In this document: in pieces, positions 12,801 through 29,506 of the stretch
How positions within the stretch are numbered: the first letter of the stretch is position 1
How the letters are laid out: every line of letters starts with the position of its first letter
Source: a virus
Taxonomy: Duplodnaviria; Heunggongvirae; Uroviricota; Caudoviricetes
Length of the DNA: 29,506 bases
Virus record (IMG/VR): IMGVR_UViG_3300027770_000046
Strand: one strand, 5' to 3'
Made by a program: the position numbers and the translations under genes
The notes under the pieces: generated by a model
Database searches by the model: none
Told to the model about the DNA's origin: nothing
Seen by the model: only the letters and a program-made list of their open reading frames with translations

Positions 12801-14138
12801 AATCATACCTTTAGAAATAAAGAAGATAGAGAAGCATTTGCTCAATTGGTTAACTTATTTCAGCCATTAAGAGAAGGTCCTATTTATGAGGAGCTTAAAA
12901 AGTCTAGTCTTACTAAAATGGGTAATGTTCTTAATGGAGATAATATATCTGATTTCTTAATGATGGGCTTTAGACAACCAGAAATGTTTGTTGAAAAAAC
13001 TATATTTAAAGCATTGTTAGATAACACAATGGTAGAGAATGGAAAGCTAATAAACATTAATGACTATGTAAAAGCTAAGTATAAAGGAAGATATGATACT
13101 GCTGACAACTTTCAAGAGGCTAGTGGAAAAATAGAGGAAGAAGTTAATGAGCTAAAGAGAACACGTTCTATCTCAGCAACTAAAAAAATAGTTAATGGCA
13201 AATTAGAGATTCCTGGATTTGATACAAGTAACCTTTCTGAAGTTGAAAGACTCACTAAACTTAATAAGGATATTACAAATAGAGTGGTGGGTAGTATGTC
13301 CAAAGAGAACATGAATAAAATGAGTATGAACATTTGGACTAGAGGATTGATGGTGTTTAAAAACTGGATCTATCCTTTATATAGTACACGTTTTAATGGT
13401 ATTAAGAAGCTTGGAACAGATTCATTCTCTTTTAAAATAGAAGACGATGGTACAATTGAAGGGGAGAAATATGATATTGGTAGGGCTAACTTGTTCTTTA
13501 AGATGGTTTATGAAACTATTAAAGACAGGCAAAACAATATTAATAATCTGTTAAAAGTTAATGTAGAAGGTGTTAAAAAGATAAATGAACTATATGATAG
13601 ATACCAAGAAACTTATTATAAGAAGACAGGACAACGTATGAACATGAGCAAAGAAGACTTTGCTGACATGCTTAGAACTAATCTTAGAAATGAGTTAAAA
13701 GAAATCAATTATATTATTACATTAACAGCAGCAATGTTTGCTTTAGGAATTCTTGCTCCTGGAGATGATGCAGATAGAGCTACTAAGAATAGATTTAGAT
13801 ATTATGAGAAGTTGTTAGATAAAATTAGAGATGAACTTACCTTCTTCTATAACCCTAATGAGATTAGAAGTTTATTAAGTGGTGGTATCTTTCCTGCAAT
13901 TGGTGTAGTTACAGATGCTTTGAACTTAGTAAATCATATGTCTGAACAAATTACAGGTATGTCTATATCTAAAGAAGGAAAAACCCCAGAACAAATTAGA
14001 GAAGAAGCAATGCCTCTTAAAGACCTGTTACGTATTGTTCCTGGTGGAAAGAACATATTAACATTTGGTGCTATTCTTAGCGAAGATTGGGCTAAAGAAT
14101 TTGACATAACCATTCAAAAGAAGAATACAATCAGGTAG
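9846..14138 (+). CDS. Large putative ejection (internal virion) protein with N-terminal PD-(D/E)xK nuclease-like domain and C-terminal hydrophobic segment
   Basis: 1430 aa. E...AGTVDLL...VYDWK...QLGLY (10449-10622) fits the RecB-like PD-(D/E)xK pattern. YIITLTAAMFALGILAP at 13710-13760. Position after the virion RNAP matches crAss-like gene order as I recall it. Confidence 0.75.
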   Translation: MATCPNKNLSSWKTLVTAQGEEMAFYLWDKYEGNVPSEYYEPVTQSTKTYNQITDAQQIILDKLAQTKKELSKIDREDTNDRGEKIIKQVYTRTTAEGTKDVKTRVTDVVREKAKQSGFDEENLSLEEKTFNAFKRDEGIKRHSVMEDIHKRYFNEDGTKRNNPLEEPAFDSEVDQEIYEKLNTYFTDLVISLPEGTIFLAEQMIYNPSTDMAGTVDLLAIEPSGKVNVYDWKFGTVAKDAKDIAWYKQEAYNIQLGLYKSTLKDAYGAKEFHNLKAIPIQFRVNVINKRNGTTDYKLNGINIGSVDPSQLKSLLLTPVSEETESTGDDKLDKIVKNLNTLVKRIADKNVTEDKKDLKTEKLDSIRRAARMIQGQDNLSGLIDTISVLQREGEKLVNDYEVIYKNRPATSEDSTDKDLSAFAIDMATYLNTADMFDRMDIKIGDYIYTKEMEEEAETEEEMEAVNELKETLDDLRKATSSIYASKEKIKEIFKEFGSKHIGERNAVVGLTDSERFFKGFAVNFEGFADIGMRALDVLYQLNTKARASAQRTALEKVKKLMDIRKKIIARGDAESVVSKIFKKTKTGDKVNKLIDKYDPEFRKKLKDAAVKDDVDWLFENIDVDRVRKEGKEILDKKIKNLEEFYKEDNDKLNYAIDKATRVWDIDNPDFNGWKTNYLLYKYPKDKWFSEEYKEVTKDPELFELYNYIIDINEVATDSGFIEKKVMNSFLPFIRKSVAEKLQENNFLAPIQDFYDSLKMNPDDVGIGKFDEITGKLINGLPKYYTYDFSKTEGGANDYSEVSFDIFRNLILYTQEVEKYKYLEEVEGQVEAINIIEEFKENHIATNRSGGVIFDENNNPVEAAGNQENIKLLSDFTRAVFYEQKYVLSDTDTPLALGKAINGVKKMLNVLSNKTIGRDIVSINEDVKATSLMKLMDAANRGFQLKVLALDPAPALINFLGSQFQISAQAGTYFTQTDVIKGMRDLTNHTFRNKEDREAFAQLVNLFQPLREGPIYEELKKSSLTKMGNVLNGDNISDFLMMGFRQPEMFVEKTIFKALLDNTMVENGKLININDYVKAKYKGRYDTADNFQEASGKIEEEVNELKRTRSISATKKIVNGKLEIPGFDTSNLSEVERLTKLNKDITNRVVGSMSKENMNKMSMNIWTRGLMVFKNWIYPLYSTRFNGIKKLGTDSFSFKIEDDGTIEGEKYDIGRANLFFKMVYETIKDRQNNINNLLKVNVEGVKKINELYDRYQETYYKKTGQRMNMSKEDFADMLRTNLRNELKEINYIITLTAAMFALGILAPGDDADRATKNRFRYYEKLLDKIRDELTFFYNPNEIRSLLSGGIFPAIGVVTDALNLVNHMSEQITGMSISKEGKTPEQIREEAMPLKDLLRIVPGGKNILTFGAILSEDWAKEFDITIQKKNTIR

Positions 14139-14189
14139 ATAAACATTATAGTTATTGCTATATTATGTAGTAATAATTTTACTAACTCA

Positions 14190-14247
14190 TTGAAAATAAA
14201 TTAAATTCACTATTTTTGCTACAATTAGTGCACATTCTATAAGTTTG
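14190..14247 (+). promoter_or_regulatory. Two overlapping Bacteroidota sigma-A-type promoter matches upstream of the fibre cluster
   Basis: TTTG (14215-14218) - 21 nt - TAAGTTTG (14240-14247) matches TTTG-N19..21-TAnnTTTG. A second match is TTG (14190-14192) - 18 nt - TATTTTTG (14211-14218). Lies in the longest intergenic gap of the window. Confidence 0.65.
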
Positions 14248-14254
14248 ATGCACT
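14227..14254. promoter_or_regulatory. Short inverted repeat straddling the downstream -7 element (possible operator or weak hairpin)
   Basis: AGTGCA (14227-14232) ... TGCACT (14249-14254), followed by TCTTTG. Confidence 0.3.
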
Positions 14255-14294
14255 TCTTTGTATATCAATAGATTACACATAACACACTATTACT

Positions 14295-16019
14295 ATGAAC
14301 GTTACTTGCTCTGCAACCCCATGTCCAGTTATATTGGATGCGACCTGCGTATTCTACGAAGGCCCCTTCCTTGTATACACTGGTATTAATACCAACGACA
14401 ATTTACAAACAGCATTAGAGAAGATTGATGCAGCTTTTGCATCAGCTGGCTATGGTACATCTGGTACATCTGGTACTAGTGGCTCCTCTGGAAGAAATGG
14501 AACTAATGGAGTTTCAGGAACTAATGGAATCAATGGTACTAAAGGTACATCAGGTACTTCAGGATCTTCTGGTACATCTGGAAGAACTGGAACTGCTGGT
14601 ACTTCTGGAAGGAATGGTACAGCTGGTACGTCAGGTAGTTCTGGGTCTAGTGGTAGAAATGGTACAGCTGGTACATCAGGTACATCAGGAACTGCTGGTT
14701 CTAATGGTACTAGTGGTAGTAGTGGATCTAGTGGTAGTAATGGTACCTCAGGTTCTTCTGGAACATCTGCTTCCTCTGGCTCTTCTGGTACATCTGGTAG
14801 TGCTGGTACAGATGGTAGTGCAGGAACTTCTGGTTCATCTGCCTCTAGTGGTACGTCAGGTTCTACAGGAACTTCTGGCAGTGCTGGTACATCAGGCTCA
14901 AGTGGTTCTGGTGGTGTTTCAGGTTCAGCTGGTACATCTGGATCTTCAGGTTTTACAGGTGATAGATATGCAACGTTCTCAGTACAAACATTTACATTAG
15001 GTAATGCTGGTACTTTACAAGTGACTCTTGGTTTAGCTTACACTGTTGGTCAAGCAATTATTATTGCTTATGATATTAACAACTATCAAGAGTGTAATGT
15101 AATTTCTTATAACAGTGCTACAGGTGCACTTAATTTTGATGCTCCTACAATAACAATAGGTGGTGGAACATATAGTTCATGGCAAATTAACTTGAATGGT
15201 GCCACAGGTGGTGCAGGTTCAAGTGGTACATCTGGTTCAAGTGGAACTAGTGGTACTACAGGTACTTCTGGAACTACAGGTACTTCAGGTACAACTGGTA
15301 CAGATGGCTCATCTGGTACAACAGGAACTGATGGTTCTTCTGGAACGTCAGGCTCTTCAGGTACAAGTGGCAGTTCTGGAACTGATGGATCTAGTGGAAC
15401 ATCAGGCTCTTCTGGAACATCTGGTTCTTCTGGAACTAGTGGTACAGATGGATCAAATGGTACGAGTGGTACAACAGGAACAAGTGGCACAGATGGATCT
15501 TCTGGTACATCAGGCTCTAGTGGCACTAGTGGAACAGATGGTTCAAGTGGAACAACAGGCACATCAGGTACTGATGGAAGCTCTGGAACAACTGGAACAA
15601 GTGGAACTGATGGTTCTTCAGGTACAGCAGGTACAAGTGGTATAGATGGTACAAGTGGTACAGATGGCTCTAGTGGTACTTCAGGAACTACAGGTACAGA
15701 TGGTTCTAGTGGTACAGCAGCAACATCAGGTATTTCTACATTGATGGCTGGTACAAGTGGTAGTACAATTACTATTCCTCCTGCTGAAGCTACAACAACA
15801 ACAACAACAACGACTGCACCTACTTATTATTATTATTTAGGAAGTCCTTGTGTAGGTGGAGCTAATGTAACTATTAGATCTACTACAACTCTAACTAATG
15901 GTGATGTAATATATCATAGTAATGGAAATTGTTGTACTATTTTCACTACTACTCTAGGACCTACTTATGATGCAGATTTTATATCACTTGAAACATGTTT
16001 TGTAGCTCCTTGCCCTTAA
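14295..16019 (+). CDS. Fibre protein A: Cys-containing N-terminal (putative virion anchor) domain, two Ser/Thr Gly-X-Y blocks around an intact beta-domain, then orphan first strand, Thr8 linker and small Cys-rich domain
   Basis: 574 aa. N-terminus TCSATPCPVILDATCVFYEGP...LQTALEKID. Gly-X-Y at 14454-14960 and 15198-15731. beta-domain at 14967-15200. Confidence 0.85.
   Translation: MNVTCSATPCPVILDATCVFYEGPFLVYTGINTNDNLQTALEKIDAAFASAGYGTSGTSGTSGSSGRNGTNGVSGTNGINGTKGTSGTSGSSGTSGRTGTAGTSGRNGTAGTSGSSGSSGRNGTAGTSGTSGTAGSNGTSGSSGSSGSNGTSGSSGTSASSGSSGTSGSAGTDGSAGTSGSSASSGTSGSTGTSGSAGTSGSSGSGGVSGSAGTSGSSGFTGDRYATFSVQTFTLGNAGTLQVTLGLAYTVGQAIIIAYDINNYQECNVISYNSATGALNFDAPTITIGGGTYSSWQINLNGATGGAGSSGTSGSSGTSGTTGTSGTTGTSGTTGTDGSSGTTGTDGSSGTSGSSGTSGSSGTDGSSGTSGSSGTSGSSGTSGTDGSNGTSGTTGTSGTDGSSGTSGSSGTSGTDGSSGTTGTSGTDGSSGTTGTSGTDGSSGTAGTSGIDGTSGTDGSSGTSGTTGTDGSSGTAATSGISTLMAGTSGSTITIPPAEATTTTTTTTAPTYYYYLGSPCVGGANVTIRSTTTLTNGDVIYHSNGNCCTIFTTTLGPTYDADFISLETCFVAPCP
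14454..14960 (+). repeat. Gly-X-Y block (GTS/GSS/GTA/GRN), Pro-free
   Basis: Triplet register in the translation; two Ala-for-Gly triplets (ASS). Confidence 0.95.
15198..15731 (+). repeat. Gly-X-Y block (GTS/GSS/GTT/GTD), Pro-free
   Basis: Triplet register in the translation; recurring GTD-GSS units. Confidence 0.95.
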
Positions 16020-16084
16020 AACAAACCAATTTACAGAGGTTCTTGTACCTCATGTTAAAATTAAAATATATAAAATAAATATAA

Positions 16085-18001
16085 ATGCCTTACGCTAATA
16101 TTACCATAACCATTGAAACTGGTAGATCATTCTATCCTGGACAATATGTCCAAGTGATACATGATGAGAACAACTATATCTTTGGTCAAGTGGTTACATA
16201 TGATCCTGTAACAGGAATCTTTGTTTTCTATCCTACCAATTACTTAGGTGCTGGTACATTTAATACATGGACTGTCGTAGCATCTGCTGTCTCAGGTTCT
16301 AGTGGAACAGCTGGAACAAGTGGATCATCTGGATCAACTGGTACTGATGGAAGTTCTGGAACAGATGGTTCTTCTGGAACCTCTGGTTCAACAGGAACAA
16401 GTGGTACAACAGGAACTGATGGAAGTAGTGGTACTGATGGTTCATCTGGCACTTCTGGTACTACAGGAACAGATGGTAGTTCTGGAACAAGTGGCACTAC
16501 AGGTACAGATGGTAGCTCAGGAACTGATGGTTCTAGTGGCACATCTGGATCTTCAGGTACAAGTGGAACTGATGGCTCAAGTGGAACCTCTGGAACAACT
16601 GGAACAGATGGTTCATCAGGTACATCAGGCACTGATGGAAGTTCTGGTACATCTGGAACTACAGGTACTGATGGAAGCTCAGGCACTAGTGGCACTGATG
16701 GATCTAGTGGAACAAGTGGAACTGATGGAAGTAGTGGCACAAGTGGAAGCTCAGGAACTGCAGCTACATCTGGTAACTCTGGTGACTTATATAAGACTAC
16801 ATCTACTACTAGTTTAAATATAGGAACAGGTACAAAAAATCTAACTGTAGATATATTATTAGCATATACAGTAGGACAGGCTATAGTTATTGCTTATGAT
16901 AATAGTAATACTATGGGTGGTAATCTTCTTTCTTACAATGCTGCTACAGGTGCAATGTCTGTTAATGTCACAGCTACCTCAGGTAGTGGTACTTATACTG
17001 CATGGCAAGTGAATTTAGGTGGTGCTGCAGGAGGTGATGGTACTTCAGGTACAAATGGTTCATCTGGAACGTCTGGAACTAATGGTACGTCTGGTACATC
17101 TGCGTCAAGTGGAACATCTGGAACAGATGGCTCTAGTGGTACTACAGGTACGTCAGGAACAGATGGGTCAAGTGGTACGTCTGCATCAAGTGGTAGTTCA
17201 GGAACTTCAGCTTCAGCTGGTACAAGTGGTAACCAAGGTGCTGATGGATTCTTAGCAGAGTGGTTATATAGTATAAATCCTGATACATCTGTAAACCCAG
17301 GTAGTACATTCTTTAGATTAGATATTAACTCTTGGAGTGAAACTGTAACAAATATTGCCATCAGTGACACTGCATACAATCCAAATGTAAACTTCTCTAC
17401 ATATTTAAACTTTATTGGACCAAACTCAATCATTAAGTTACAAAGCTCAAGTAATGTTGCAACTTTTAAGTTTTTAAGAATTGTAAGTAATACACCTTTT
17501 GTATCAGGCTATGAAGATTACACAGTGACACAACTTGCTAGTGGTGGTCCAGATCCTAGTGCTAGCGAAGCATTCTATTTCAACTTCATTGGTGTGAGTG
17601 GTACATCTGGTACCTCAGCATCAAGTGGAACTTCTGCAACATCAGGCACTACAGGAACTGATGGTTCTTCTGGTACAAGTGCAACGTCTGGTTCTAGTGC
17701 AAGTTCTGGAACATCTGCAACTAGTGGATCTTCAGGAACTTCTGGAACTGATGGATCAAGTGGTACTTCAGCTTCATCTGGAAGTAGTGGAACAAGTGGT
17801 TCTTCTGGAACTAGTGGAAGCTCAGGAACCTCTGCATCTAGTGGAAGCTCAGGAACTGATGGTAGCTCAGGTACAGCAGCTTCAAGTGGTACTTCAGCAA
17901 GTGCTGGTACAAGTGCTTCTTCTGGAACAGCAGCAACCTCTGGTGCATCATCAACATATAATGGAACTTCAGGAACAACACAAACCTTACCTTTAACATA
18001 A
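16085..18001 (+). CDS. Fibre protein B: N-terminal beta-domain lacking its first strand, three Ser/Thr Gly-X-Y blocks, one intact beta-domain, one ~115-aa globular domain, C-terminal orphan first strand
   Basis: 638 aa. N-terminal domain 16085-16294, internal homologous domain 16790-17020, second domain about 17249-17590, ends GTAATSGASSTYNGTSGTTQTLPLT. Confidence 0.85.
   Translation: MPYANITITIETGRSFYPGQYVQVIHDENNYIFGQVVTYDPVTGIFVFYPTNYLGAGTFNTWTVVASAVSGSSGTAGTSGSSGSTGTDGSSGTDGSSGTSGSTGTSGTTGTDGSSGTDGSSGTSGTTGTDGSSGTSGTTGTDGSSGTDGSSGTSGSSGTSGTDGSSGTSGTTGTDGSSGTSGTDGSSGTSGTTGTDGSSGTSGTDGSSGTSGTDGSSGTSGSSGTAATSGNSGDLYKTTSTTSLNIGTGTKNLTVDILLAYTVGQAIVIAYDNSNTMGGNLLSYNAATGAMSVNVTATSGSGTYTAWQVNLGGAAGGDGTSGTNGSSGTSGTNGTSGTSASSGTSGTDGSSGTTGTSGTDGSSGTSASSGSSGTSASAGTSGNQGADGFLAEWLYSINPDTSVNPGSTFFRLDINSWSETVTNIAISDTAYNPNVNFSTYLNFIGPNSIIKLQSSSNVATFKFLRIVSNTPFVSGYEDYTVTQLASGGPDPSASEAFYFNFIGVSGTSGTSASSGTSATSGTTGTDGSSGTSATSGSSASSGTSATSGSSGTSGTDGSSGTSASSGSSGTSGSSGTSGSSGTSASSGSSGTDGSSGTAASSGTSASAGTSASSGTAATSGASSTYNGTSGTTQTLPLT
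16295..16783 (+). repeat. Gly-X-Y block with GTD-GSS-GTS(-GTT) higher-order units
   Basis: Translation of ORF 16085; synonymous positions vary between units. Confidence 0.95.
17021..17248 (+). repeat. Gly-X-Y block with some Ala-for-Gly triplets
   Basis: Translation of ORF 16085. Confidence 0.9.
17591..17950 (+). repeat. Gly/Ala-X-Y block (many ASS/ATS/ASA triplets in the Gly register)
   Basis: Translation of ORF 16085. Confidence 0.9.
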
Positions 18002-18004
18002 GTT

Positions 18005-18928
18005 ATGCCATACGCAGATTTAACATTCCAAGTTCAGCCAGGTTTAAGATTTGTTGCAAATGATTTTGTGAACGTATATGTACCCACTACAACGACTACA
18101 ACAACAGTAGCTCCAACTACTACAACAACAACCACTGCAACTCCTACAACTACAACGACTACAACTCCTCCTCCTACAACTACTACCACAACAACAGCTG
18201 CAGGTGGTATTGTTACAAGTGGATTAATAGTTAATTTAGATGCAAGTAATCCTTCTTCTTATTCAGGCTCAGGTAATACATGGACTGACTTAACAGGTAA
18301 TGGATATAATGCAACAAGACAAGGTTCTGTACCATTTACTTCAGCAGGTCAACAATCTTATTTTGGTTTTAGTGGCTCAAGTTCTAATTACTTCTTGGGT
18401 AATAGTAATTTATATGGATTAAACTCTAATCAAATTAGTGGAACTGTTGGTATAACTGTTTCAATGATATTTAGACCATCAAACATTAGTACTAGAAGTA
18501 CTTTATGGTCAACTTATGCAAGTGATAAAGGAAGTGTTTTTGAAATTGGTACATTAGGTGCATTATGGACAAACACACTTAGACAATATTTAAGTGATAA
18601 TGGTCCTATTCGTAGCTCTGATAATAGAGGTGGTGCAAATACAATATCAAATTCAACAACTTACTTAATGACAGTTACTTGGGACCAAACAACTTATACA
18701 AGTACTATGTATGTAAATGGTAGTGCAATTGCACAAAGTAATGTTGGTTTTAATAAAAATAATATGACTTCAGCTTGGGCTAATTCAGCTAACTACAATT
18801 TAGGAGGAGACCCAACTCAAACAGGTACTTATGGAAATTTATATACAGCTTATATATATAATAGAGGATTAACAGCAGGAGAAGTATTACAAAACTATAA
18901 CGCATTACAATCAAGATTTGGACTATAA
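18005..18928 (+). CDS. Protein C: 27-aa beta-domain fragment, (P-T7-x-x)4 linker, concanavalin A-like/LamG lectin-type domain
   Basis: 307 aa. SGLIVNLDASNPSSYSGSGNTWTDLTGNGYNAT ... YNRGLTAGEVLQNYN...RFG is the LamG-like pattern common in aquatic phage structural proteins. Confidence 0.8.
   Translation: MPYADLTFQVQPGLRFVANDFVNVYVPTTTTTTTVAPTTTTTTTATPTTTTTTTPPPTTTTTTTAAGGIVTSGLIVNLDASNPSSYSGSGNTWTDLTGNGYNATRQGSVPFTSAGQQSYFGFSGSSSNYFLGNSNLYGLNSNQISGTVGITVSMIFRPSNISTRSTLWSTYASDKGSVFEIGTLGALWTNTLRQYLSDNGPIRSSDNRGGANTISNSTTYLMTVTWDQTTYTSTMYVNGSAIAQSNVGFNKNNMTSAWANSANYNLGGDPTQTGTYGNLYTAYIYNRGLTAGEVLQNYNALQSRFGL
18083..18202 (+). repeat. Four 10-aa units P-TTTTTTT-x-x (mucin-like linker)
   Basis: Codon count gives exactly seven Thr in each unit (18086-18106, 18116-18136, 18146-18166, 18176-18196). 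Confidence 0.95.
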
Positions 18929-18939
18929 AATAATTAATA

Positions 18940-19947
18940 ATGCCTAACCCATCAATATATGGAAGAGTTGTAAGTTATGACACTGTCACTGGTAGTCTAG
19001 TGGTAACACCACTTGAATACACAGGTGATCCAGGATCATACAGTACATGGACAGTTGAATTGGCTGGTAAGAATGGAACCTCTGGTGCATCTGCTAGTTC
19101 TGGAACTAGTGGTACTAGTGGTTCTTCAGCAAGCTCAGGTACACATGGTACGTCTGCAACTTCAGGTTCTTCTGGAACTTCAGGCTCAGCTGGTACGTCA
19201 GCAAGCTCAGGATCTTCAGGAACATCTGCTTCATCTGGTTCTTCAGGAACAAGTGCTGTTCAAGGTGGTACAGGTCCTCAGGGTGCCACTGGACCTCAGG
19301 GTCCAACAGGATTAGGTGGTTCTTCTGGTACATCTGGATCATCTGGTGGTCCAGGTCCTCAAGGTCCAACAGGAGGACAAGGCCCTCAGGGTCCTCAAGG
19401 TTTTGCAGGTGCTACAGGTCCAACAGGAGCCCCAGGACCACAAGGTCCAGTGGGTACTTCAGCTAGTTACTCTCAAGCTCCAAGTAATGGTTTGAATCAA
19501 GGAGATTATCCAAATCTTGGTACTACATCAAATGGTACTACATATGCATCAAGATTTTATCTTCCAGGTAATGTTTATAAAGGACTAAATGGTTCTTATG
19601 GACCTTGTTGGTTTGGATTTAACTTTGGATGGGCAAGTAATGCTGGATTAGGTGGTGCATATTTCTTTAACTCTTCTTCAAGAGGATTAAAAAAAGATAT
19701 TGAACCATTTACTAAAGATGCAACAGAAATCATAAAAAGTACAGAAATAATTACTTGGGAATTTGAAAGTGGAGAACATACAGAAGTTGAACATATTGGA
19801 TTCATAGCAGAAGATACTCCAGAAGAATTAGCCACTCCAGATCATAACGTAATGGATATTACTAATACTTTAGGAGTTGTATTAAAAGCAATTCAAGAAA
19901 TTGATAATAGAGTGACAGCTCTACAAAACAAAAATAACAATGGCTAA
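18940..19947 (+). CDS. Tip fibre D: C-terminal half of the beta-domain, Ser/Thr and collagen-like Gly-X-Y, short tip, peptidase S74 intramolecular chaperone
   Basis: 335 aa. Gly-X-Y at 19066-19461. SSRGLKKDI...HIGFIAED...VLKAIQEI from 19675. Confidence 0.88.
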
Positions 19948-21004
19948 CGCAACATTTAACTGTTCACCTAATTTAAGCTATGTAGCAGGAGACTTTGTGC
20001 AACTAAGCTATGATGCAAATAACTATGTTATTGGGACAGTGGTGTCATATAATGATATAACAGGTGTTATGGTAATCACTCCAGTTAAATCTGTAGGTAG
20101 TGGATCATATTCAATATGGAACGTTCAATTAACAGGGAATGCTGGTTCATCTGGAACAAATGGAACATCAGGTACTTCAGCATCTAGTGGAACAAGTGCT
20201 ACGTCTGGTAATGCTGGAAGTTCTGGTACAGCTGGAACATCTGGATCTGCAGGTTTAAGTAGATCAAGTGGAACAGCTGGTACATCTGGTTCTAGTGCCA
20301 CTGCAGGTACATCAGGTTCAGCAGGCACAACTGGTGCTATTGGACCAGTAGGTCCTCAAGGTGCACAAGGACCAATAGGTGCAACAGGTTCATCTGGTAC
20401 ATCAGGGGTTTCAGGAGTTAATGGTCCAACAGGTCCCACAGGAGCACAAGGTCCAACAGGAGCTACAGGCCCTACAGGTACAGCAACTCCAGGTCCTACA
20501 GGACCCACAGGTCCTACTGGAGCTCAAGGTCCACAAACAATATATAATCAATCTTTAAATACCACAGATAGTGTAAGTTTTGCTAACTTAGAAATGGGTT
20601 ATTGTCATGCAGTAGGTAACTTTCTTGTTCCTGATGGTGGTAAAGTAAGTAATAGTGCAGGTCAAGGTGCAAGTTGGTATGGTAATCAAGGAAGTTGGTT
20701 TTCGTATGGTTCTATTGGTTCTGCTTATTTCTTTGGTACTTCCACAAAAGAAGTTAAAAAGAATATAGAACCATTTACTAAATCAGGACTTGATTTAATA
20801 AAACAAACTGATATTGTAACATATAAATATGAGGGTGAACTACATTATACTGACTTAACAAAAATAGGATTTATTGCAGAAGAAACTCCTATTGAGATGT
20901 CTTCTTCAGACCAAGATGAAATGGTTATCAATTCTACAATTTGTGTAGCTATGAAAGCAATTCAAGAACTAGATGAGAAAATTAAAAACTTACAAAATAA
21001 ATAG
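19940..21004 (+). CDS. Tip fibre E: beta-domain lacking first strand, Ser/Thr and collagen-like Gly-X-Y, short tip, peptidase S74 chaperone
   Basis: 354 aa. Gly-X-Y at 20135-20536. STKEVKKNI...IGFIAEE...AMKAIQEL from 20741. Confidence 0.88.
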
Positions 21005-21006
21005 AT

Positions 21007-21369
21007 ATGACAATAAATGATATCAAATACACTTGGGAACTGTCTCATTTTCACGTAGTGCCTTCTAAAAATAACCAAGATAATGTAGTTACAAAAATAG
21101 CATTTACATTACATGGTGAATATATAGATGAGAATGGTACTTCTTTTAAAGAGTTTTGGACTGGAGCAACTCTTATAGAGATGGATGAAACCTCTACATT
21201 TACACCACTTGATCAAGTGACTAAAGAAATGGCTGAGAAGTGGGTGGAAGCTTCTGAAAATAAGAAGCAAAGAAATGTTGATTGGATTAAAAACAAAGTG
21301 TTAACAAGAATGCAAGAAAAAGTTACACCTACTATTGTTGTAATGACACCTCCTTTTGCACAAAAGTAA
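21007..21369 (+). CDS. Small fibre-associated phage protein (possible assembly factor)
   Basis: 120 aa. YTWEL...DNVVTKIAF...FTPLDQVTKEMAEKWV...PPF resembles small proteins I recall next to tail fibre genes in aquatic phages; function unknown. Confidence 0.55.
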   Translation: MTINDIKYTWELSHFHVVPSKNNQDNVVTKIAFTLHGEYIDENGTSFKEFWTGATLIEMDETSTFTPLDQVTKEMAEKWVEASENKKQRNVDWIKNKVLTRMQEKVTPTIVVMTPPFAQK

Positions 21370-21379
21370 TTAATAAACA

Positions 21380-22177
21380 ATGCCTTATTCAAACGTTACA
21401 TTTAATGTAAGTACAAACTTATCATTTAAACCAAATGATTTTGTACAATTAAATGGTACTCTTATTACTACTACCACTACTACCACTACAGCTGCACCTT
21501 TGCCTGTTATTACTACTGGATTAGTATTATATGTTGATGCTAGTATCCCTAGTAGCTATCCAGGTACAGGAACAACTTGGTACGATCTAAGCCCAAGTGG
21601 ATACAATGGTACATTAAGTGGCAGTACAGCTTATAGTTCTTTAAATGGAGGATATATTTCCACACAATCTAGTACAGGATATATTAATTTTCAACCTTCT
21701 TCAGCAGGAAGTAGCAGTAGTGCTTACACTTGGGGTGGTTGGTTTAATCTTCCAACTGCAGGTGCAACTAATATTCCTATGACAAGAGGAGGAGGAACTG
21801 ATAGTTATCCTAATGGATGGAATCTTGCTACTGTATTTTTATCTAACGCATTTAATGCTTCTATAGTAACTTCTGTACCTAGCATAGGTCAAATAAATGG
21901 TTCATATTCTTCAACTCCAAGTAGTAATACTTGGTATAATCATATAGCAGTATGGACTCCAGGTGTTAGTATAAAAGTATACTTAAATGGTGTTTTGAGA
22001 GCTACTCTAAATACTTCAACTACAATTTTAAGAACTTCTTCTCAAGGTTGGAATACTTCAATTGATGGTACAAAATACAATACTAATTATGGTTCAATGA
22101 TTGTTTACAATAGAGTATTAAGTGATGCTGAAGTTCTTCAAAACTTTAATTCAACTAAGACAAGATTTGGATACTAA
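21380..22177 (+). CDS. Protein F: ~26-aa beta-domain fragment, Thr8 linker, LamG-like domain (paralog of C)
   Basis: 265 aa. TGLVLYVDASIPSSYPGTGTTWYDL ... YNRVLSDAEVLQNFN...RFG. Thr8 at 21467-21490. Confidence 0.8.
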   Translation: MPYSNVTFNVSTNLSFKPNDFVQLNGTLITTTTTTTTAAPLPVITTGLVLYVDASIPSSYPGTGTTWYDLSPSGYNGTLSGSTAYSSLNGGYISTQSSTGYINFQPSSAGSSSSAYTWGGWFNLPTAGATNIPMTRGGGTDSYPNGWNLATVFLSNAFNASIVTSVPSIGQINGSYSSTPSSNTWYNHIAVWTPGVSIKVYLNGVLRATLNTSTTILRTSSQGWNTSIDGTKYNTNYGSMIVYNRVLSDAEVLQNFNSTKTRFGY

Positions 22178-22194
22178 AATAAATATAAAAAGTA

Positions 22195-23193
22195 ATGGCA
22201 TCTAATGATTATATTATAGGTAGAGTGGTATCATATAACCCTAGTACAGGTGATATGGTCGTAACTCCTTTAGAATCAAATGGTTCAGGAACATTTAACT
22301 CTTGGACTGTTGAATTAACAGGAGCATATGGAACATCAGGAACCTCTGGAACCTCTGGAACAAGTGGCTCTGCAGGAACTAGTGGTGCTTCAGTGTTATC
22401 TGCTGCTTCAGGTTCTGCAGGTACGTCAGCATCAAGTGGTACATCAGGTGTAGCTGCTACAAGTGGAAGCTCTGGCTTATCTGCTTCGAGTGGTAACTCT
22501 GGTCTTTCTGGTGCCAATGGAGCAACAGGACCACAAGGTCCAATAGGACCAACTGGTGCACAAGGACCTCAAGGAGCTAGAGGTTCATCAGGATCTAGTG
22601 GTGTAAATGGTCCAACAGGTCCACAAGGCCCTACTGGAGCAACAGGAGCAAGAGGTCCACAAGGAGCTAGTCCTACAGGTCCCCAAGGACCTACAGGTCC
22701 ACAAGGTCCTGCAAATAGCAATAACCAAACATTGAACTATGGAAGTCCTGCAACATTTGTAAATATTAGTGCTGGTTATCAAATATATTGTGACCAAGGG
22801 TTTTTTAATAATGGTGGAGTTCGAGGTCATGTAGTAAATGCTAATAATTTATATTTCTATAATAATAGTTCTAGTCAATGGTATAGTAATGGAGCAATTG
22901 GAGCAGGAGGGGGTAACTTCTTCCCAGCCTCTACTAGAGAGATTAAGAAAAATATTGAGCCATTTACTAAGTCTGCATTAGATATAATCAATAGTACAGA
23001 CATTGTGTCATTTGAATTTGAGATAACTGATCTTGAGGGTGAGACACATATAGGTTTTATAGCTGAAGACACTGCAGAAGAGCTAGCTACTAGCACTCAT
23101 GATCAAATGGTAGTACCTTCTAGCTTATCAATTTTGATGAAGGCTATACAAGAATTAGATAAAAAGTTACAGGTATTAGAAAATAATGCTTAA
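22195..23193 (+). CDS. Tip fibre G: C-terminal half of the beta-domain, Ser/Thr and collagen-like Gly-X-Y, short tip, peptidase S74 chaperone (paralog of D)
   Basis: 332 aa. Gly-X-Y at 22321-22713. STREIKKNI...HIGFIAED...LMKAIQEL from 22930. Confidence 0.88.
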
Positions 23194-23218
23194 CTTTGTT
23201 CTATCTAAAATTTAAATA

Positions 23219-23818
23219 ATGAATACCTCTATTGTTTTTCCAAAGCACACATGTGATCCACAAAATTATTATTTCTTTAATCCAGGGTTTTCTGCAGAAG
23301 AATTAGATATAGTTTATAAAGGAGTTGCAACAATTCCATTTCAACAAGCAATTACAGGTGAGAATAATGAAGAAAACCTAAGCGTGAGATCATCTTCTAT
23401 CAAATGGATTCCACCAAATGAACAATGGAGATGGCTTTATGAAAAGCTAATGAATATGATTATAGAAGCCAATAATGCAATTTGGCATTTTGATTTACAT
23501 AATTTAACAGACCATATTCAATATACAGAATACTATGCTGAGAAAGGTGGGCATTATAACTGGCATCAAGATATAGGTCCAGGAGAAATGTCTAAAAGAA
23601 AGATAAGCATAACAGTACAATTATCTGATCCTGATGAATATGAAGGTGGTGACTTAGAGTATTTTAAAGGAGGTAATCCAGAAGAAGCTGATAAAGCACC
23701 AAGAGGAAAAGGAGTTGTATTTATATTCCCTTCTTACATGATGCACAGAGTTACTAAATTAACTAAAGGAACTAGACGCTCTTTCGTACTATGGGTAGGA
23801 GGAGAACATTATAAATAG
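23219..23818 (+). CDS. 2OG-Fe(II) oxygenase (prolyl-hydroxylase/PKHD-like fold)
   Basis: WHQD (23561-23572), RKISITVQLS, YEGGDL, FPSYMMHRV, GTRRSFVLW: complete HxD...H...R set. Confidence 0.9.
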   Translation: MNTSIVFPKHTCDPQNYYFFNPGFSAEELDIVYKGVATIPFQQAITGENNEENLSVRSSSIKWIPPNEQWRWLYEKLMNMIIEANNAIWHFDLHNLTDHIQYTEYYAEKGGHYNWHQDIGPGEMSKRKISITVQLSDPDEYEGGDLEYFKGGNPEEADKAPRGKGVVFIFPSYMMHRVTKLTKGTRRSFVLWVGGEHYK

Positions 23819-23823
23819 TATTT

Positions 23824-24312
23824 ATGAAATTTCCTATTTCTAAGTTTAACTTAGGTAGACAATTTACAAAAGAAGAAAGAGAAGTATTTGTTAATTGTGT
23901 AAAAAATACAGGTGAAATTGAAGCTAATGTAGGTAATGCTAAATCTAAAAGCATGTCTATATTAGAGATACCTGAACTAGTTAATATTAAATCTTTTTGT
24001 TTAAGTTCTTTAAACAAACATGCCAACAATAGTGATCTTTACATCACAGAGTCTTGGTTAAATTTTACAATGCCAGGTGAGTGGCAACATTCTCAAAATC
24101 ATCCTAACAGTTTAATAAGTGGTATATTTTATATCAATACTCGTAAAGTATTGAACAATATTGTATTTTCAGAACTTGAAAAAATAATTAGTTTAGAAAG
24201 ATATGACTTATTATTATTTCCATCTCAGTTATTACATCATGCTCCAAAGAATATAGGTAATGATTTAAAGATAAGTTTATCTTTTAATACAGCAAAACCA
24301 ACAACTATATAA
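23824..24312 (+). CDS. TIGR02466-like putative 2OG-Fe(II) oxygenase, degenerate-looking copy
   Basis: SWLNFTMPGEWQHSQNHPNSLISGIFYI ... LFPSQLLHH ... KISLSFN; clear paralog of 25845-26474. Confidence 0.75.
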   Translation: MKFPISKFNLGRQFTKEEREVFVNCVKNTGEIEANVGNAKSKSMSILEIPELVNIKSFCLSSLNKHANNSDLYITESWLNFTMPGEWQHSQNHPNSLISGIFYINTRKVLNNIVFSELEKIISLERYDLLLFPSQLLHHAPKNIGNDLKISLSFNTAKPTTI

Positions 24313-25124
24313 TGCAGCAGATATTTTATAATAGTAGTTTACCTAGATCAGGAAGTACATTGTTACAAAATGTATTCAATCAAAACCCTGATATGTATGC
24401 CACTCCTACAAGTGGTGTTGTACAATTCTTAGAGCTTATAAGAATGACTTTTTCTCAAGCAGAATTTAAAGCACAGGATACCAAAGTTATGGAGAAGGCT
24501 GCTTTGTCTTTTTGTAGAGAAGGTATGAAAGGGTTTGCTAGTTCAATATCAGACAAGCCTTACTTTATAGATAAAAGCTTTTATTGGGGAATGCACTTTA
24601 ATTATTTAAAATTAATCAATGATGAAGACCCTAAGATTATAATTATGATTAGAGATTTGAGAGATATATTTGCATCCTTTGAATCTAATCATAGAAAAAA
24701 CACTTTGGTTTATAATGAAAATGTTAATTGGGATAGTCTTGAATGTACTACAATGGAGAAAAGAATACTAGATTGGACTAGGAAAAAACCAGTGGGACCT
24801 GTTATAGATGCCTTAAGAGATATCATTAATTACAGGTTAGATTCTAAAATCTTGTTTATAAAATATGAGGAGTTCTGTGAAGACCCTAATAAAGAAATGA
24901 TTAAGATATATAACTACTTAGAGCTGCCATACTTCCAACATAACTTTAACAATGTAGAACAAACTACAAAAGAGAATGATGTATTCTATTTCACTAGACA
25001 CGATATTAGAAGTGTTGTAAAGAAAAAGGAATCAGAAGCTGAACATATTATAGGTAAGCCTGCTTGTGATTGGGTATATAAAAACTATGAGTGGTTCTTT
25101 AAGTTCTTTAAATATAATAAATAG
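24312..25124 (+). CDS. Sulfotransferase family protein
   Basis: SSLPRSGSTLL (5'-PSB loop), IIMIRDLRDIFAS (3'-PB motif), IKYEEFCEDP. Confidence 0.85.
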   Translation: MQQIFYNSSLPRSGSTLLQNVFNQNPDMYATPTSGVVQFLELIRMTFSQAEFKAQDTKVMEKAALSFCREGMKGFASSISDKPYFIDKSFYWGMHFNYLKLINDEDPKIIIMIRDLRDIFASFESNHRKNTLVYNENVNWDSLECTTMEKRILDWTRKKPVGPVIDALRDIINYRLDSKILFIKYEEFCEDPNKEMIKIYNYLELPYFQHNFNNVEQTTKENDVFYFTRHDIRSVVKKKESEAEHIIGKPACDWVYKNYEWFFKFFKYNK

Positions 25125-25125
25125 A

Positions 25126-25494
25126 TTATATTTTCCTAATTGGTCTGGCAAAAGATGGAACTTTCTTGTCTAATATATATTGATTACCAGTAAAGAAATA
25201 TTGATAATGAGCATTTTCTTTATCATATTCATCACGAGTCCAATAGCCATATAATGGCAACATTTTTAGATATTCTTTTTTCTTATACATTAAATAAAGT
25301 TGCTCTTTATTAGGTAACATCCAACCATCTCCCATTTTTTTACAAAATTCCATAGCAAAATCCCAACTCATAAGTCCAGTTTTATGTGATTCTACCAATT
25401 TAGAAGAAGAATTATAAAGATTATAATACCCTAATAATTCATTAGGAAATACTTCGTATTTTACTTCATTATCAATAATTATTAATTTTTCCAT
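25126..25494 (-). CDS. DUF1566/Lcl-C-like (C-type lectin fold) protein
   Basis: MSWDFAMEFCKKMGDGWMLPNKEQL...YWT...ARPIR matches the W-x2-A-x3-C...W-x-LP-x3-[EQ]L...YW pattern. Confidence 0.7.
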   Translation of the reverse strand: MEKLIIIDNEVKYEVFPNELLGYYNLYNSSSKLVESHKTGLMSWDFAMEFCKKMGDGWMLPNKEQLYLMYKKKEYLKMLPLYGYWTRDEYDKENAHYQYFFTGNQYILDKKVPSFARPIRKI

Positions 25495-25506
25495 AATATA
25501 ATAATA

Positions 25507-25845
25507 TTATTGTAATTTTCTTATTGGTCTAGCAAAAGATGGCATTCTTTTTTCAAATACATACTGAACACCAGTAAAGAAATATTGATAGTATGCAGAA
25601 TATGCATCATATTCATCACAGCTCCAATAACCATGTAGTGGTAAGATACCAAGGTATTCTTTTTTCCTGTACATTAAATCTAGTTCCTCTTTAGTAGGTA
25701 ACGTCCAACCCTCTCCTAATCTTTTACAAGATTCCATAGCATAATACCAAGTCATAAGTCCTTCAACTGTACCATTACCATATCCTAAATCATAAGGATA
25801 TACTTCATACTTTATATTGTTATCTACAATTATTAGTTTTTGCAT
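25507..25845 (-). CDS. DUF1566/Lcl-C-like protein, tandem paralog
   Basis: MTWYYAMESCKRLGEGWTLPTKEEL...YWS...ARPIR; 55 of the last 83 aligned residues match the neighbour by hand count. Confidence 0.7.
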   Translation of the reverse strand: MQKLIIVDNNIKYEVYPYDLGYGNGTVEGLMTWYYAMESCKRLGEGWTLPTKEELDLMYRKKEYLGILPLHGYWSCDEYDAYSAYYQYFFTGVQYVFEKRMPSFARPIRKLQ

Positions 25846-26474
25846 TAGAATATGTTATTGATTTCTAAGTAATTCACTCCATCATTCTGAATACCAAACT
25901 TACCTTCAAAGAAAGAGTTGAAAGCTAAACTAATTCTAGGAGTTTTACTTTTAGTTTCAGGAACTCCATGAAACATATTAGATGGGAATAACACCATAAA
26001 TCCAGTTCCTACTTGAAGATTAAATAAATGTGAATTATATCCATTAGTATCTTTAACATCAAATTGCCATGGTCTCACTTCTTTAGTATTTGTAAAAGAA
26101 ATATTATCACAATCTTTGTCTGCATTAATATATATTACACCACTAATAATACTGTTAGGATGATAATGTTGATGATGATTTTCTCCTGGTTCAGTTACAT
26201 TTGTCCATGATTGCGTAAGTTTTAATCTAATCTCATTTGGTCTTGCTGGTGAATAAATCTCATCAAAATATTGATCTAAAGCATTTTGTGCAAACTTTTT
26301 AAGATCTTTCATAGCAGGATCTTCTAGCACTCTATGATTATAAGAACCTTCATTACCAACACTAAATCCTAGCTCTTGACTATTTACACAGTCTAGTTCT
26401 TCTTTTGTAAAATCTCTTCCAAGTTCAAACGTCATTAATGGAGTGGCAAATATTCTAAGTGTATCTAATTTCAT
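25845..26474 (-). CDS. TIGR02466-like putative 2OG-Fe(II) oxygenase
   Basis: SWTNVTEPGENHHQHYHPNSIISGVIYI ... LFPSNMFHGV ... RISLAFN. Confidence 0.85.
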   Translation of the reverse strand: MKLDTLRIFATPLMTFELGRDFTKEELDCVNSQELGFSVGNEGSYNHRVLEDPAMKDLKKFAQNALDQYFDEIYSPARPNEIRLKLTQSWTNVTEPGENHHQHYHPNSIISGVIYINADKDCDNISFTNTKEVRPWQFDVKDTNGYNSHLFNLQVGTGFMVLFPSNMFHGVPETKSKTPRISLAFNSFFEGKFGIQNDGVNYLEINNIF

Positions 26475-27535
26475 AAGTTTTCTTTTATTGTGTTTAATAC
26501 TGTTTCCATACTGATAGATTTATGACATTCAAAATGTCTAGGAGTATCCTCATGCTCAGGACACCAATTCCAATCTCCTTTATTAAACTTAAACACAGGG
26601 TTATTCCAACAGCCATTACATACATCTTTATTAACTATTCGTATACAGTTAGATTGAAACTCATGGTCTGGTGTAGTGAAGTTAGAGATCATCACTGTCT
26701 TCTTACCTATACCCCAGTTTAACCAACTGATACCACTAGAAAGACCAACAAATATATCTGCATGATGCAGATAGTTCATAGCTACATTAAGAGACTTATC
26801 TTCTAGCTTCTCTGCTCCTAAGTCATCTGCCTCCTGTGATAGTTCTATCACCCTATACCCCATATCTTTTAAGGCCTGAATTAACTCTGGCCAGTAGTAC
26901 CAATGCTTACATTGTGCTGTAGATCTAGTAGATATACAGATGTATTTACTATCTATTGGTCTTTCAGATGGTGTGAAGGCTATCCTAGGTTGTATCTCTT
27001 CAAATTCTAAAGCTAATACATTACTAGCTGCTTGTTGTAATGGTATAGTTGCAGGATGTGTAGGCTCTTTATCTTTCTCCCAGAACCAGCCAAGCTCCAC
27101 TTGAGCCACTATATTATGTACTACCACTCCTCTTTCTACAAACTCTAGCTCAGGATATACAGATTCAAATAGTTCATTCTTGAAAGAAGATACTAACACA
27201 TGGCACTTATACTTCTCTTGAAAGGCTAGACAGTATGGCATCCAAGCTATACTATCTCCAAGGCTCTTAGACTCAAAGACAATAAATACCCTAGCACCTC
27301 TTAGCTCATCTAATAGATTAATCTGTAATAATGTACGTCCTTGGTATTTAATGAATATAGCTATGTTAGATAGATACTTTCTATTAAGCTTAGACCATCC
27401 ACCTTTCTTCATTTTAGTTTCATAGATAGTTGTATTACCATCTACAAAGCTTACATCATATTCTCTACCTTTTCCTTCATCATCTAATAGTTCAAAGTGC
27501 AAACCATTGATGTGTAATAATTTATATTTTATCAT
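26471..27535 (-). CDS. TibC/Aah-like (autotransporter O-heptosyltransferase family, GT-B fold) glycosyltransferase
   Basis: SLGDSIAW, TAQCKHW, FVGLSSGISWLNWGIGKKTVMISNFT, and the four-Cys set VCNGCWN...WCP...FEC that matches the iron site of TibC. Confidence 0.8.
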   Translation of the reverse strand: MIKYKLLHINGLHFELLDDEGKGREYDVSFVDGNTTIYETKMKKGGWSKLNRKYLSNIAIFIKYQGRTLLQINLLDELRGARVFIVFESKSLGDSIAWMPYCLAFQEKYKCHVLVSSFKNELFESVYPELEFVERGVVVHNIVAQVELGWFWEKDKEPTHPATIPLQQAASNVLALEFEEIQPRIAFTPSERPIDSKYICISTRSTAQCKHWYYWPELIQALKDMGYRVIELSQEADDLGAEKLEDKSLNVAMNYLHHADIFVGLSSGISWLNWGIGKKTVMISNFTTPDHEFQSNCIRIVNKDVCNGCWNNPVFKFNKGDWNWCPEHEDTPRHFECHKSISMETVLNTIKENL

Positions 27536-29123: not shown

Positions 29124-29506
29124 TTTCTAAATGTTTTTTGCATATTGTCTATTAAAGAAAAACCATCTGCTTGTGTGGTAAGTCTCTTCTTAACTATACC
29201 CATTTGTGGCCCTGCAAAGATATTATTAAAATACATATCAGAAGCATCCCACTTGTGTTTTCTCAAAGTATTTTTTAAATAATCTGCTACAGATATAGGG
29301 AACATAATAGATTGTAAACCTATGATGTGATCTGTAACATACATGTCATCATTGATATCTTTAATCATAGGGCTTTGAGGCCAGCCATATTCTAATGTAT
29401 CCTTGTCTCCAAAGGACATATAGTTGATACCATTTGGTCCCATTAAGTGTGCACATTGCTCAACTTTTCGTACGAAAAAGTGTATGTCTGTCTCAATAAT
29501 ACAGTC
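29120..29506 (-). CDS. C-terminal part of a GT-A (GT25-like) glycosyltransferase domain; 5'-truncated by the window
   Basis: The frame stays open past the listed ATG at 29443 to the window end, reading DCIIETDIHFFVRKVEQCAHL-MGPNG. CIIETD resembles the GT25 acidic motif and LTTQADGFSLID the GT25 C-terminal motif. Confidence 0.55.
   Translation of the reverse strand, partial: DCIIETDIHFFVRKVEQCAHLMGPNGINYMSFGDKDTLEYGWPQSPMIKDINDDMYVTDHIIGLQSIMFPISVADYLKNTLRKHKWDASDMYFNNIFAGPQMGIVKKRLTTQADGFSLIDNMQKTFRK

What the first reader, a model, noticed from the sequence alone, without database searches (positions are those of the whole stretch)
15741..22323. One beta-domain split across gene boundaries: candidate fibre assembly by strand complementation
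Seen: a ~75-aa domain occurs intact inside A (14967-15200, YATFSVQTFTL...LAYTVGQAIIIAYDINNY...VISYNSATG...GTYSSWQINL) and B (16790-17020, YKTTSTTSLNI...LAYTVGQAIVIAYDNSN...LLSYNAATG...GTYTAWQVNL). Elsewhere it is in pieces. Piece 1, the first strand only, ends B (YNGTSGTTQTL-PLT*, 17957-18001) and ends the repeat part of A (MAGTSGSTITI-PP, 15744-15782); both follow the same GTAATSG that precedes the intact domain in B. Pieces 2+3 begin B (MPYANITITI...WTV) and E (MANATF...WNVQL). Piece 2 alone begins C (MPYADLTFQV...DFVNVY) and F (MPYSNVTFNV...DFVQL), each followed by poly-Thr and a LamG domain. Piece 3 alone begins D ([13 protein letters not shown]...WTVEL) and G ([14 protein letters not shown]...WTVEL). 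Both C/D and F/G are cut at the same turn (the YDxNNY loop). Established: donor-strand complementation joins subunits in chaperone-usher pili. Inference: these proteins snap together by completing a shared fold (A1+B, B1+C+D, and so on), giving a segmented fibre whose joints are also branch points for lectin domains. I know of no described phage system of this kind.
Basis: partly seen in the sequence, partly recalled or inferred. Interest (0 to 1): 0.92.

Follow-up and report, generated by a model that had tools for sequence, protein, structure and literature searches.

The report
Split fibre domain tethers swappable lectins
In this phage's tail-fibre genes, an inserted lectin cassette has cut a small beta-barrel domain cleanly in two, so a lectin protein carries one piece and the fibre carries the other; this is most likely a natural plug-and-socket for hanging exchangeable binding modules on the fibre, but binding is untested.

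Summary
The core observation is real. A ~70-residue beta-barrel domain is intact in A, B (twice) and E. In gene pairs C/D and F/G it is divided in its beta2-beta3 loop. C and F carry strands 1-2, a poly-Thr linker and a ConA/LamG-like lectin. D and G carry strands 3-5, a collagen-like shaft and an S74 chaperone.

Related metagenomic phages settle the origin. The F/G orthologue is one intact gene in L001, L002, L013 and L236. The window differs from L002 by a clean 745-nt insertion (21463-22207: linker, lectin, stop, spacer, ATG). The same loop is split at one or both of two paralogous sites in at least eight related contigs, with about five cargo types. Outgroups are intact.

The hairpin is under purifying selection (pN/pS about 0.3) while the cargo is replaced by recombination. 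Best reading (0.55): fragment complementation in trans tethers exchangeable lectins to short fibres. Binding is not shown.

The segmented-fibre model is therefore unsupported. Recoding, splicing and assembly error are very unlikely. The scan had not noted this on other DNA.

The parts
14295..16019 (+). Gene A: long collagen-like fibre protein with one intact internal barrel domain (14949-15218), then a poly-Thr linker and a small Cys-rich C-terminal module
   Evidence: ORF; Pfam Collagen; domain profile E 3e-34
15744..15782 (+). It is followed by a poly-Thr linker, so it is not a free end.
   Evidence: -2.8 bits against the domain profile
16085..18001 (+). Gene B: collagen-like fibre with an intact N-terminal barrel lacking the first strand (16085-16306) and an intact internal barrel with it (16772-17041)
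   Evidence: AlphaFold2 model of the internal copy
17957..17998 (+). It is conserved in relatives but is not demonstrably a first strand.
18005..18079 (+). C half-domain 1: strands beta1-beta2 (25 codons)
   Evidence: intact counterpart in L233 and L151
18080..18928 (+). C cargo: poly-Thr linker (about 18080-18205) plus a ConA/LamG-like module. It is 91.5% identical in DNA to the 3' part of a 773-aa gene in L001.
18940..19947 (+). Gene D: half-domain 2 (beta3-beta5, 18940-19068), a collagen-like shaft and a Peptidase_S74 chaperone
19940..21004 (+). Gene E: short fibre with an intact N-terminal barrel (19940-20155), a collagen-like shaft and S74
21007..21369 (+). DUF7936 gene, a conserved synteny marker between fibre positions 2 and 3
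21380..21462 (+). F half-domain 1: strands beta1-beta2, orthologous to the first 28 codons of the intact gene in L002, L001 and L013
21463..22207 (+). Inserted cassette, absent from the intact orthologue: poly-Thr linker, LamG (Pfam PF13385), TAA, a 17-nt AT-rich spacer, then ATG and the first 4 codons of G
   Evidence: blastn breakpoints; Pfam; sequence
22195..23193 (+). Gene G: half-domain 2 (22195-22326), a collagen-like shaft and S74

Best explanation
The locus encodes the collagen-like tail fibres of a crAss-like phage (the phage type comes from earlier scan notes and was not checked here). A small beta-barrel, five strands plus an optional first strand, normally heads the short trimeric fibres (B, E). 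It is also strung along the long ones (A, B). In two paralogous short-fibre genes a cassette was inserted cleanly into the beta2-beta3 loop. The cassette consists of a poly-Thr linker, a ConA/LamG-like lectin, a stop codon, an AT-rich spacer and an ATG. The upstream product (C, F) is therefore a two-strand hairpin tag joined by a flexible linker to a lectin. The downstream product (D, G) is a fibre whose head lacks those two strands. Most likely the hairpin re-inserts into the incomplete barrel in trans (natural protein-fragment complementation). This would hang up to three lectin modules on poly-Thr tethers at the proximal end of each fibre trimer. The lectin cargo is exchanged among phages by recombination in the conserved linker and at the lectin ends. 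Shown here: the split, its clean insertion origin, its recurrence, selection on the tag, and cargo swapping. Inferred: that the two halves bind, the 3:3 stoichiometry, and that the lectins serve in host-surface binding.
For: Same fold, same loop. Clean insertion without loss or duplication of domain residues: the window and L002 are collinear at 82-83% identity on both sides of 21463-22207, and L002 8916 to 8921 is continuous. The intact gene is seen in L001, L002, L013 and L236. The C/D break also falls inside the loop of the intact L233 and L151 versions. Recurrence: of 209 significant profile hits in 304 sources (303 loci plus the window), counted with overlapping loci, 17 are half-2-only, and all belong to one clade. 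The split at position 1 is seen in the window, L304, L001, L002, L013 and L308. The split at position 3 is seen in the window, L304, L240 and L151. Close intact relatives exist in both sub-clades. Wherever the upstream flank is held, a half-1 cargo gene lies upstream of the half-2 fibre gene. L240 is cut off at the contig end and shows only the lectin's 3' end. Protein-level constraint on the tag: pN/pS is 0.29 between the two split F tags at pS 0.80 (Fisher p 9e-5) and 0.30 for the C tags (p 0.02). The high pS excludes conservation at the DNA level only. Constant tag with variable cargo: F-type tags are 93-100% identical on at least three LamG variants. About five cargo types occur overall. 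Cargo cores are replaced between 88-90% identical flanks. The arrangement occurs in many independent assemblies: 20 contigs for P0157 and 9 for the window's F.
Against: There is no direct evidence that the halves bind. The tag could be kept for another protein-level reason. Part of the divergence used for pN/pS may have accumulated before the splits. L308 carries a short decaying half-1-like ORF, so such pieces can persist briefly as debris. In L001 and L308 an extra 78-82-aa gene lies between the cargo gene and the fibre gene, so tight coupling of the two genes is not universal.
Confidence: 0.55

Rival explanations
1. The split is real, but the hairpin is only what was left upstream of the insertion. 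It supplies a start codon and leader for the lectin gene. C and F are free, or are attached some other way. D and G work with a truncated head.
For: Binding is untested. L308 holds a 33-codon remnant ORF beginning like B's first half. The N-terminal barrels already lack the first strand and still fold in the model, so the fold tolerates some truncation.
Against: pN/pS is about 0.3 at near-saturated synonymous sites. The core residues of beta1-beta2 are kept in all split tags. The tag is invariant on swapped cargos. Both halves are retained in every locus across lineages down to about 58% identity of a neighbouring marker gene.
Confidence: 0.22
2. The hairpin tag is a docking peptide for the virion site that intact N-terminal barrels bind, not for its neighbour's half-barrel.
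For: Conserved N-terminal anchors with swapped distal modules are usual in phage receptor-binding proteins (established knowledge). The data here cannot tell which partner the tag binds.
Against: A two-strand hairpin taken out of a barrel core is unlikely to present the barrel's outer surface. The cognate half-2 gene always lies next to it.
Confidence: 0.1
3. One reading: the C-terminal tails of A and B donate the missing first strand to the next protein's barrel, chaining A-B-(C+D) into a segmented fibre.
For: B's tail motif is conserved, and it directly precedes a gene starting with a barrel that lacks the first strand, in the window, L002, L151 and L236. Similar tails precede such genes in L243, L246 and L249; two of these rank 7/178 and 2/182 in the profile test. 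Internal copies do have a first strand.
Against: The window's B tail gains 0.2 bits (rank 106/200), and the L151 and L236 tails rank 38-53/200. A's piece scores -2.8 bits. In A, in L013's B and in L233 the motif is followed by poly-Thr. In an AlphaFold2 read-through test the tail stayed disordered, with pLDDT about 29. There are only two candidate donors for four acceptor barrels.
Confidence: 0.12
4. One polypeptide is made after all, by read-through, frameshift, bypass or splicing, or the breaks are assembly errors or pseudogenes.
For: B and C are in the same frame, separated by TAA GTT.
Against: C/D and F/G are in different frames, with several stops in the 11-19-nt AT-rich spacers. L001 and L308 have a whole gene in between. 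L151 and L236 end B with TAA TAA. No Rfam intron was found. All ORFs are open in many independent assemblies.
Confidence: 0.03

Closest known systems
Phage 'genes in pieces' made by ORF insertion (Aeromonas phage Aeh1 nrdA split by mobE; T4 topoisomerase genes 39/60). From my own knowledge; not found in the paper searches.
   Same: An intact gene in relatives is interrupted by an inserted ORF. The result is two polypeptides that must reassemble.
   Different: There the insert is a free-standing homing endonuclease gene and the host protein is a large enzyme. Here the insert is fused in frame to the upstream fragment, so reassembly would tether a new lectin module. The cut also lies inside a single 70-residue barrel.
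Donor-strand complementation in chaperone-usher pili and type V pili
   Same: An incomplete beta fold in one subunit would be completed by strands from another polypeptide.
   Different: The split is two strands plus three strands of a small barrel, not one strand of an Ig-like pilin. There is no polymerisation, and no chaperone or usher was found among the eight fibre-locus proteins scanned.
Branched or modular phage receptor-binding complexes with conserved N-terminal anchors (T7 gp17-type anchors, G7C gp63.1/gp66, CBA120 tailspikes). From my own knowledge.
   Same: A constant N-terminal attachment part carries a recombinationally swapped distal binding module, and side branches sit on a fibre.
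   Different: Those anchors are whole domains that bind other whole domains. Here the anchor is a fragment of the partner's own domain.
Engineered split-domain tags (SpyTag/SpyCatcher, split GFP 1-10/11)
   Same: A short beta-strand or hairpin tag completes a truncated beta domain and so joins two proteins.
   Different: Those are engineered, and SpyTag forms an isopeptide bond. Here the split is natural and no covalent chemistry is indicated.
Collagen-like phage tail fibres with a Peptidase_S74 intramolecular chaperone
   Same: D, E and G match Pfam Collagen and Peptidase_S74.
   Different: No split head domain has been described for this family, as far as my searches reached.

Membership tests
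Collagen-like tail fibre with S74 intramolecular chaperone | Gly-X-Y repeats matching Pfam PF01391 | tested here: met
   A, B, D, E and G, with E-values from 1e-11 to 2e-46
Collagen-like tail fibre with S74 intramolecular chaperone | C-terminal Peptidase_S74 (PF13884) domain | tested here: met
   D 32.7, E 30.6 and G 34.6 bits against a cut-off of 22. A and B lack it.
ConA-like / Laminin_G_3 lectin (PF13385) | Pfam match above the gathering score | tested here: met
   F scores 29.7 bits against 27.6. Related cargos P0153 and L304 score 65 and 61 bits.
ConA-like / Laminin_G_3 lectin (PF13385) | The same match for C | tested here: inconclusive
   No Pfam hit at E <= 0.01. C matches the same PHROGs as F. 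BLASTP to F gives 3e-14, but only over the tag, the linker and the first part of the module.
Chaperone-usher donor-strand complementation | Ig-like pilin fold lacking its last strand, completed by a neighbour's N-terminal extension | tested here: not met
   The model is a small closed barrel. The cut separates two strands from three.
Chaperone-usher donor-strand complementation | Dedicated periplasmic chaperone and outer-membrane usher genes | tested here: not met
   No such Pfam families in the eight fibre-locus proteins. The rest of the window was not scanned.
Gene split by ORF insertion ('genes in pieces') | An intact orthologue in close relatives and a precise insertion | tested here: met
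   L002 8833-9900 and others are intact. The insertion is 745 nt, between codons 28 and 30.
Gene split by ORF insertion ('genes in pieces') | The insert encodes a homing endonuclease or other mobile-element function | tested here: not met
   The insert encodes a linker and a lectin only. No intron RNA was found.
Gene split by ORF insertion ('genes in pieces') | The fragments reassemble into a functional protein | not testable with these tools
   This needs biochemistry or a virion structure.
Unnamed fibre beta-barrel domain (not in Pfam) | Profile match over beta1-beta5 | tested here: met
   There are 8950 representative proteins at E <= 1e-3, many with several copies. Fold searches give only generic small-barrel matches; the best is the JBD30 baseplate protein 8rk3, Z 8.1.

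The most novel reading that the evidence does not exclude
Phages of this clade use a natural split-barrel plug-and-socket. A 25-residue hairpin tag on any lectin cargo snaps into a headless fibre, so receptor-binding side-modules can be exchanged by recombination without touching the fibre. The same principle (a first strand donated by the preceding protein) might also join fibre segments end to end.
Probability: 0.5. Interest if true: 0.85.

Novelty: new variant of a known kind. Interest (0 to 1): 0.72.

Why it matters
If the halves do re-associate, this would be a natural counterpart of engineered split-tag systems. It would also be a new way for phages to build branched, exchangeable receptor-binding gear: the attachment interface is the hydrophobic core of a domain, so it should be tight and partner-specific. 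The locus further offers an unusually clear evolutionary series, in which the intact gene, the cleanly split gene and several swapped cargos occur among close relatives. This shows how domain insertion and gene fission can create a new subunit. The 25-residue tag and its socket are small enough to test directly and might be useful as a protein-coupling tool.

Tried and rejected
1. Complex prediction on D(1-50) plus C(1-32) with my own alignments gave a median score of 0.30 against a mark of 0.32, and no controls were run. This is no verdict and is not used as evidence either way.
2. An AlphaFold2 read-through of the L151 B tail, two stops and the intact next barrel left the tail disordered. 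The alignment was shallow and the test was in cis, so this is only weak evidence against the donated first strand.
3. A profile-gain test of the upstream tails as a first strand, against 178-200 random windows of the same proteins, was not significant for the window.
4. Megablast of 14000-23500 against 50,697 phage records found only a 160-nt collagen-repeat match.
5. No whole genome is held for this window.
6. Rfam found nothing in 14000-23500.
7. Foldseek and VIA-align against the PDB gave only generic small barrels: ATP synthase N-terminal domain-like matches and phage baseplate or tail domains. No family could be assigned.
8. Five paper searches found no description of a split fibre domain.
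9. A search with G residues 1-46 returned only 3 proteins, so that search gave no wider count of split versus intact heads.
10. A word search of the scan's earlier notes found no equivalent case.
Full report
LAYOUT. The + strand from 14295 to 23193 holds eight consecutive genes:
- A, 14295-16019
- B, 16085-18001
- C, 18005-18928
- D, 18940-19947
- E, 19940-21004
- a DUF7936 gene, 21007-21369
- F, 21380-22177
- G, 22195-23193

Pfam calls A, B, D, E and G collagen-repeat proteins. D, E and G end in the Peptidase_S74 intramolecular chaperone of trimeric tail fibres. F is a Laminin_G_3 (ConA-like lectin) protein. PHROGs call the collagen proteins tail fibres. Earlier scan notes place the window in a crAss-like phage; I did not test that.

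THE OBSERVATION. I built a profile from 23 intact copies and searched it against every frame of the window.
- Whole domains: A, B (twice) and E, with E-values from 3e-27 to 3e-34.
- Second half only, at residue 5-7: D (E 1e-11) and G (E 1e-18).
- First half only, at residue 1: F (E 4e-4).

C's first 24 residues are 47% identical to F's and 58% identical to intact orthologues. AlphaFold2 folds the internal copy of B confidently (pLDDT 82.7). The model has a short first strand, then beta1 (20-25), beta2 (37-41), beta3 (47-56), beta4 (61-70) and beta5 (78-82). Both breaks fall in the beta2-beta3 loop. The fold is a generic small barrel; the best match is a domain of the JBD30 baseplate protein (Z 8.1), which is too weak to name a family. 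The domain is not in Pfam but is abundant: 8950 representative proteins at E <= 1e-3, often with many copies per protein.

ORIGIN OF THE SPLIT. Related IMG/VR and other metagenomic contigs share the whole locus.
- In L001, L002, L013/L014 and L236, the gene at the F/G position is one intact fibre gene of 354-432 codons with a complete head.
- At the DNA level the window and L002 are collinear at 82-83% identity up to 21462 and again from 22208. L002 is continuous there, from 8916 to 8921.
- F/G therefore arose by a clean 745-nt insertion between codons 28 and 30 of an intact gene. The insert carries a poly-Thr linker, the lectin, TAA, a 17-nt AT-rich spacer and a new ATG. No domain residue is lost or duplicated.
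- The C/D break is equally clean when compared with the intact versions in L233 and L151.

DISTRIBUTION. In 304 sources (303 loci plus the window) the profile gave 209 significant hits; overlapping loci from the same contig are counted more than once. Of these, 192 are whole domains and 17 are half-2-only. All 17 belong to this one clade.
- Position 1 (C/D) is split in the window, L304-L307, L001, L002, L013/L014 and L308/L309. It is intact in L151, L236, L233 and L241.
- Position 3 (F/G) is split in the window, L304-L307, L240 and L151. It is intact in L001, L002, L013, L236, L308 and L241.
- Ordering the loci by identity of the adjacent oxygenase gene shows the states are patchy. L151 (split) and L236 (intact), and the window (split) and L002 (intact), are close pairs in two distant sub-clades.
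- The same loop was therefore hit or exchanged more than once.
- Wherever the upstream flank is held, a half-1 cargo gene lies upstream of the half-2 fibre gene. L240 is cut at the contig end and shows only the lectin's 3' end.
- In L001 and L308 a small 78-82-aa gene lies between the two.

CARGO. About five modules follow the tag and linker:
- two or three diverged LamG types
- a small Cys-containing module (L002, L013)
- a double Cys module (L151)

. The F-type lectin sits at position 1 in L001 and L308 and at position 3 in the window and L240. It is 80.6% identical in DNA, with homology starting inside the tag at the NDFV codons. C's linker and lectin are 91.5% identical to the 3' part of a 773-aa multi-module gene in L001. 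Between the window and L304 the flanks are 88-90% identical, but both lectin cores are replaced. A protein search found F-type tags 93-100% identical on at least three different lectins, in up to 20 contigs each. The tag is constant and the cargo is swapped by recombination.

SELECTION. Over 23 codons of the tag:
- Window F against L151 F (both split): pS 0.80, pN 0.23, ratio 0.29, Fisher p 9e-5.
- Window C against L001 C: ratio 0.30, p 0.02.

The high synonymous divergence shows that the constraint acts on the protein, not on a DNA recombination arm. One caveat applies: some of this divergence may predate the splits.

MECHANISM. A two-strand hairpin and a three-strand remainder of a barrel core are unlikely to be stable alone; this is inference. 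Taken together, the clean cut, the retention of both halves, the fixed gene order, the purifying selection and the constant-tag, variable-cargo pattern are best explained by re-association in trans. This would tether lectins by poly-Thr linkers to the proximal end of short trimeric fibres. I put this at 0.55. Binding itself is not shown. The one complex prediction allowed gave no verdict and is not counted.

THE DONATED FIRST STRAND.
- In favour: B's tail motif is conserved, and it directly precedes a barrel lacking that strand in the window, L002, L151 and L236. Comparable tails occur in L243, L246 and L249.
- Against: in a profile-gain test using random windows of the same proteins, the window's tail ranks 106/200. 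L151 and L236 rank 38-53/200. Only L243 and L249 stand out.
- Against: A's piece scores -2.8 bits.
- Against: in A, in L013's B and in L233 the motif is followed by poly-Thr, so it is not a free end.
- Against: an AlphaFold2 model of a natural in-frame read-through (L151 tail, two stops, barrel) left the tail disordered.

I rate this extension at about 0.12.

OTHER RIVALS.
- Read-through of B into C is unlikely. The two are in frame in the window (TAA GTT ATG), but L151 and L236 have TAA TAA.
- C/D and F/G are in different frames, with several stops in the spacers.
- No intron-like RNA was found.
- Assembly error is excluded by the many independent contigs.

COMPARISON AND NOVELTY. The nearest precedents are listed below; the first three come from my own knowledge.
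- Phage genes split by an inserted ORF whose products reassemble.
- Donor-strand complementation in pili.
- Modular anchors of phage receptor-binding proteins.
- Engineered split tags.

None of these combines a clean cut inside one small domain with an in-frame cargo on the upstream fragment. Five full-text searches found no description of such a system. I class it as a new variant of a known kind, pending a binding test.

Noticed in passing
L001:7551-7810; L308:6895-7131: A 78-82-aa ORF with a signal-peptide-like start and a hydrophobic segment lies between the lectin gene and the half-2 fibre gene. Its last codons (…RFGL, stop, spacer) match the 3' end of the window's C, which looks like a recombination scar.
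   Followed up: partly
L308:5870-5975: A short ORF of about 33 codons begins like B's first half (MSYANITITI…) and then diverges. It appears to be a decaying half-1 remnant upstream of the position-1 lectin gene.
   Followed up: no
window 15783-16019; L002:4150-4369; L013:3780-3997: A also ends in a poly-Thr linker plus a small Cys-containing module, and relatives carry a different module there. Cargo on poly-Thr linkers is therefore also swapped in cis at the end of the long fibre.
   Followed up: partly
P0008 residues 481-780: A 2417-aa family member shows half-2 and half-1 profile matches in alternating order, with about 58 residues between a half-1 and the next half-2. Either the beta2-beta3 loop tolerates insertions within a single chain, or the halves are permuted.
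   Followed up: no
window 23219-29506; L304:7912-12870: The fibre genes are followed by two 2OG-Fe(II) oxygenase-like genes, a sulfotransferase and, on the other strand, glycosyltransferase-like genes. This arrangement is conserved in relatives. They could modify the Ser/Thr-rich fibres and linkers.
   Followed up: no
window 17999-18007; L151:3680-3694; L236:922-936: B and the next gene are in the same frame in the window, L002, L013, L151 and L236, separated by one or two TAA codons and 1-5 sense codons. This may be a relic of an older fission of one long fibre gene.
   Followed up: partly
window 19940-19947: D and E overlap by 8 nt, and the same overlap recurs in relatives. E starts inside D's last codons.
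   Followed up: no
L001:4405-6726: A 773-aa protein is built of several modules joined by poly-Thr linkers. It has no half-1 tag and no Pfam match, and it ends in the same lectin as the window's C.
   Followed up: partly
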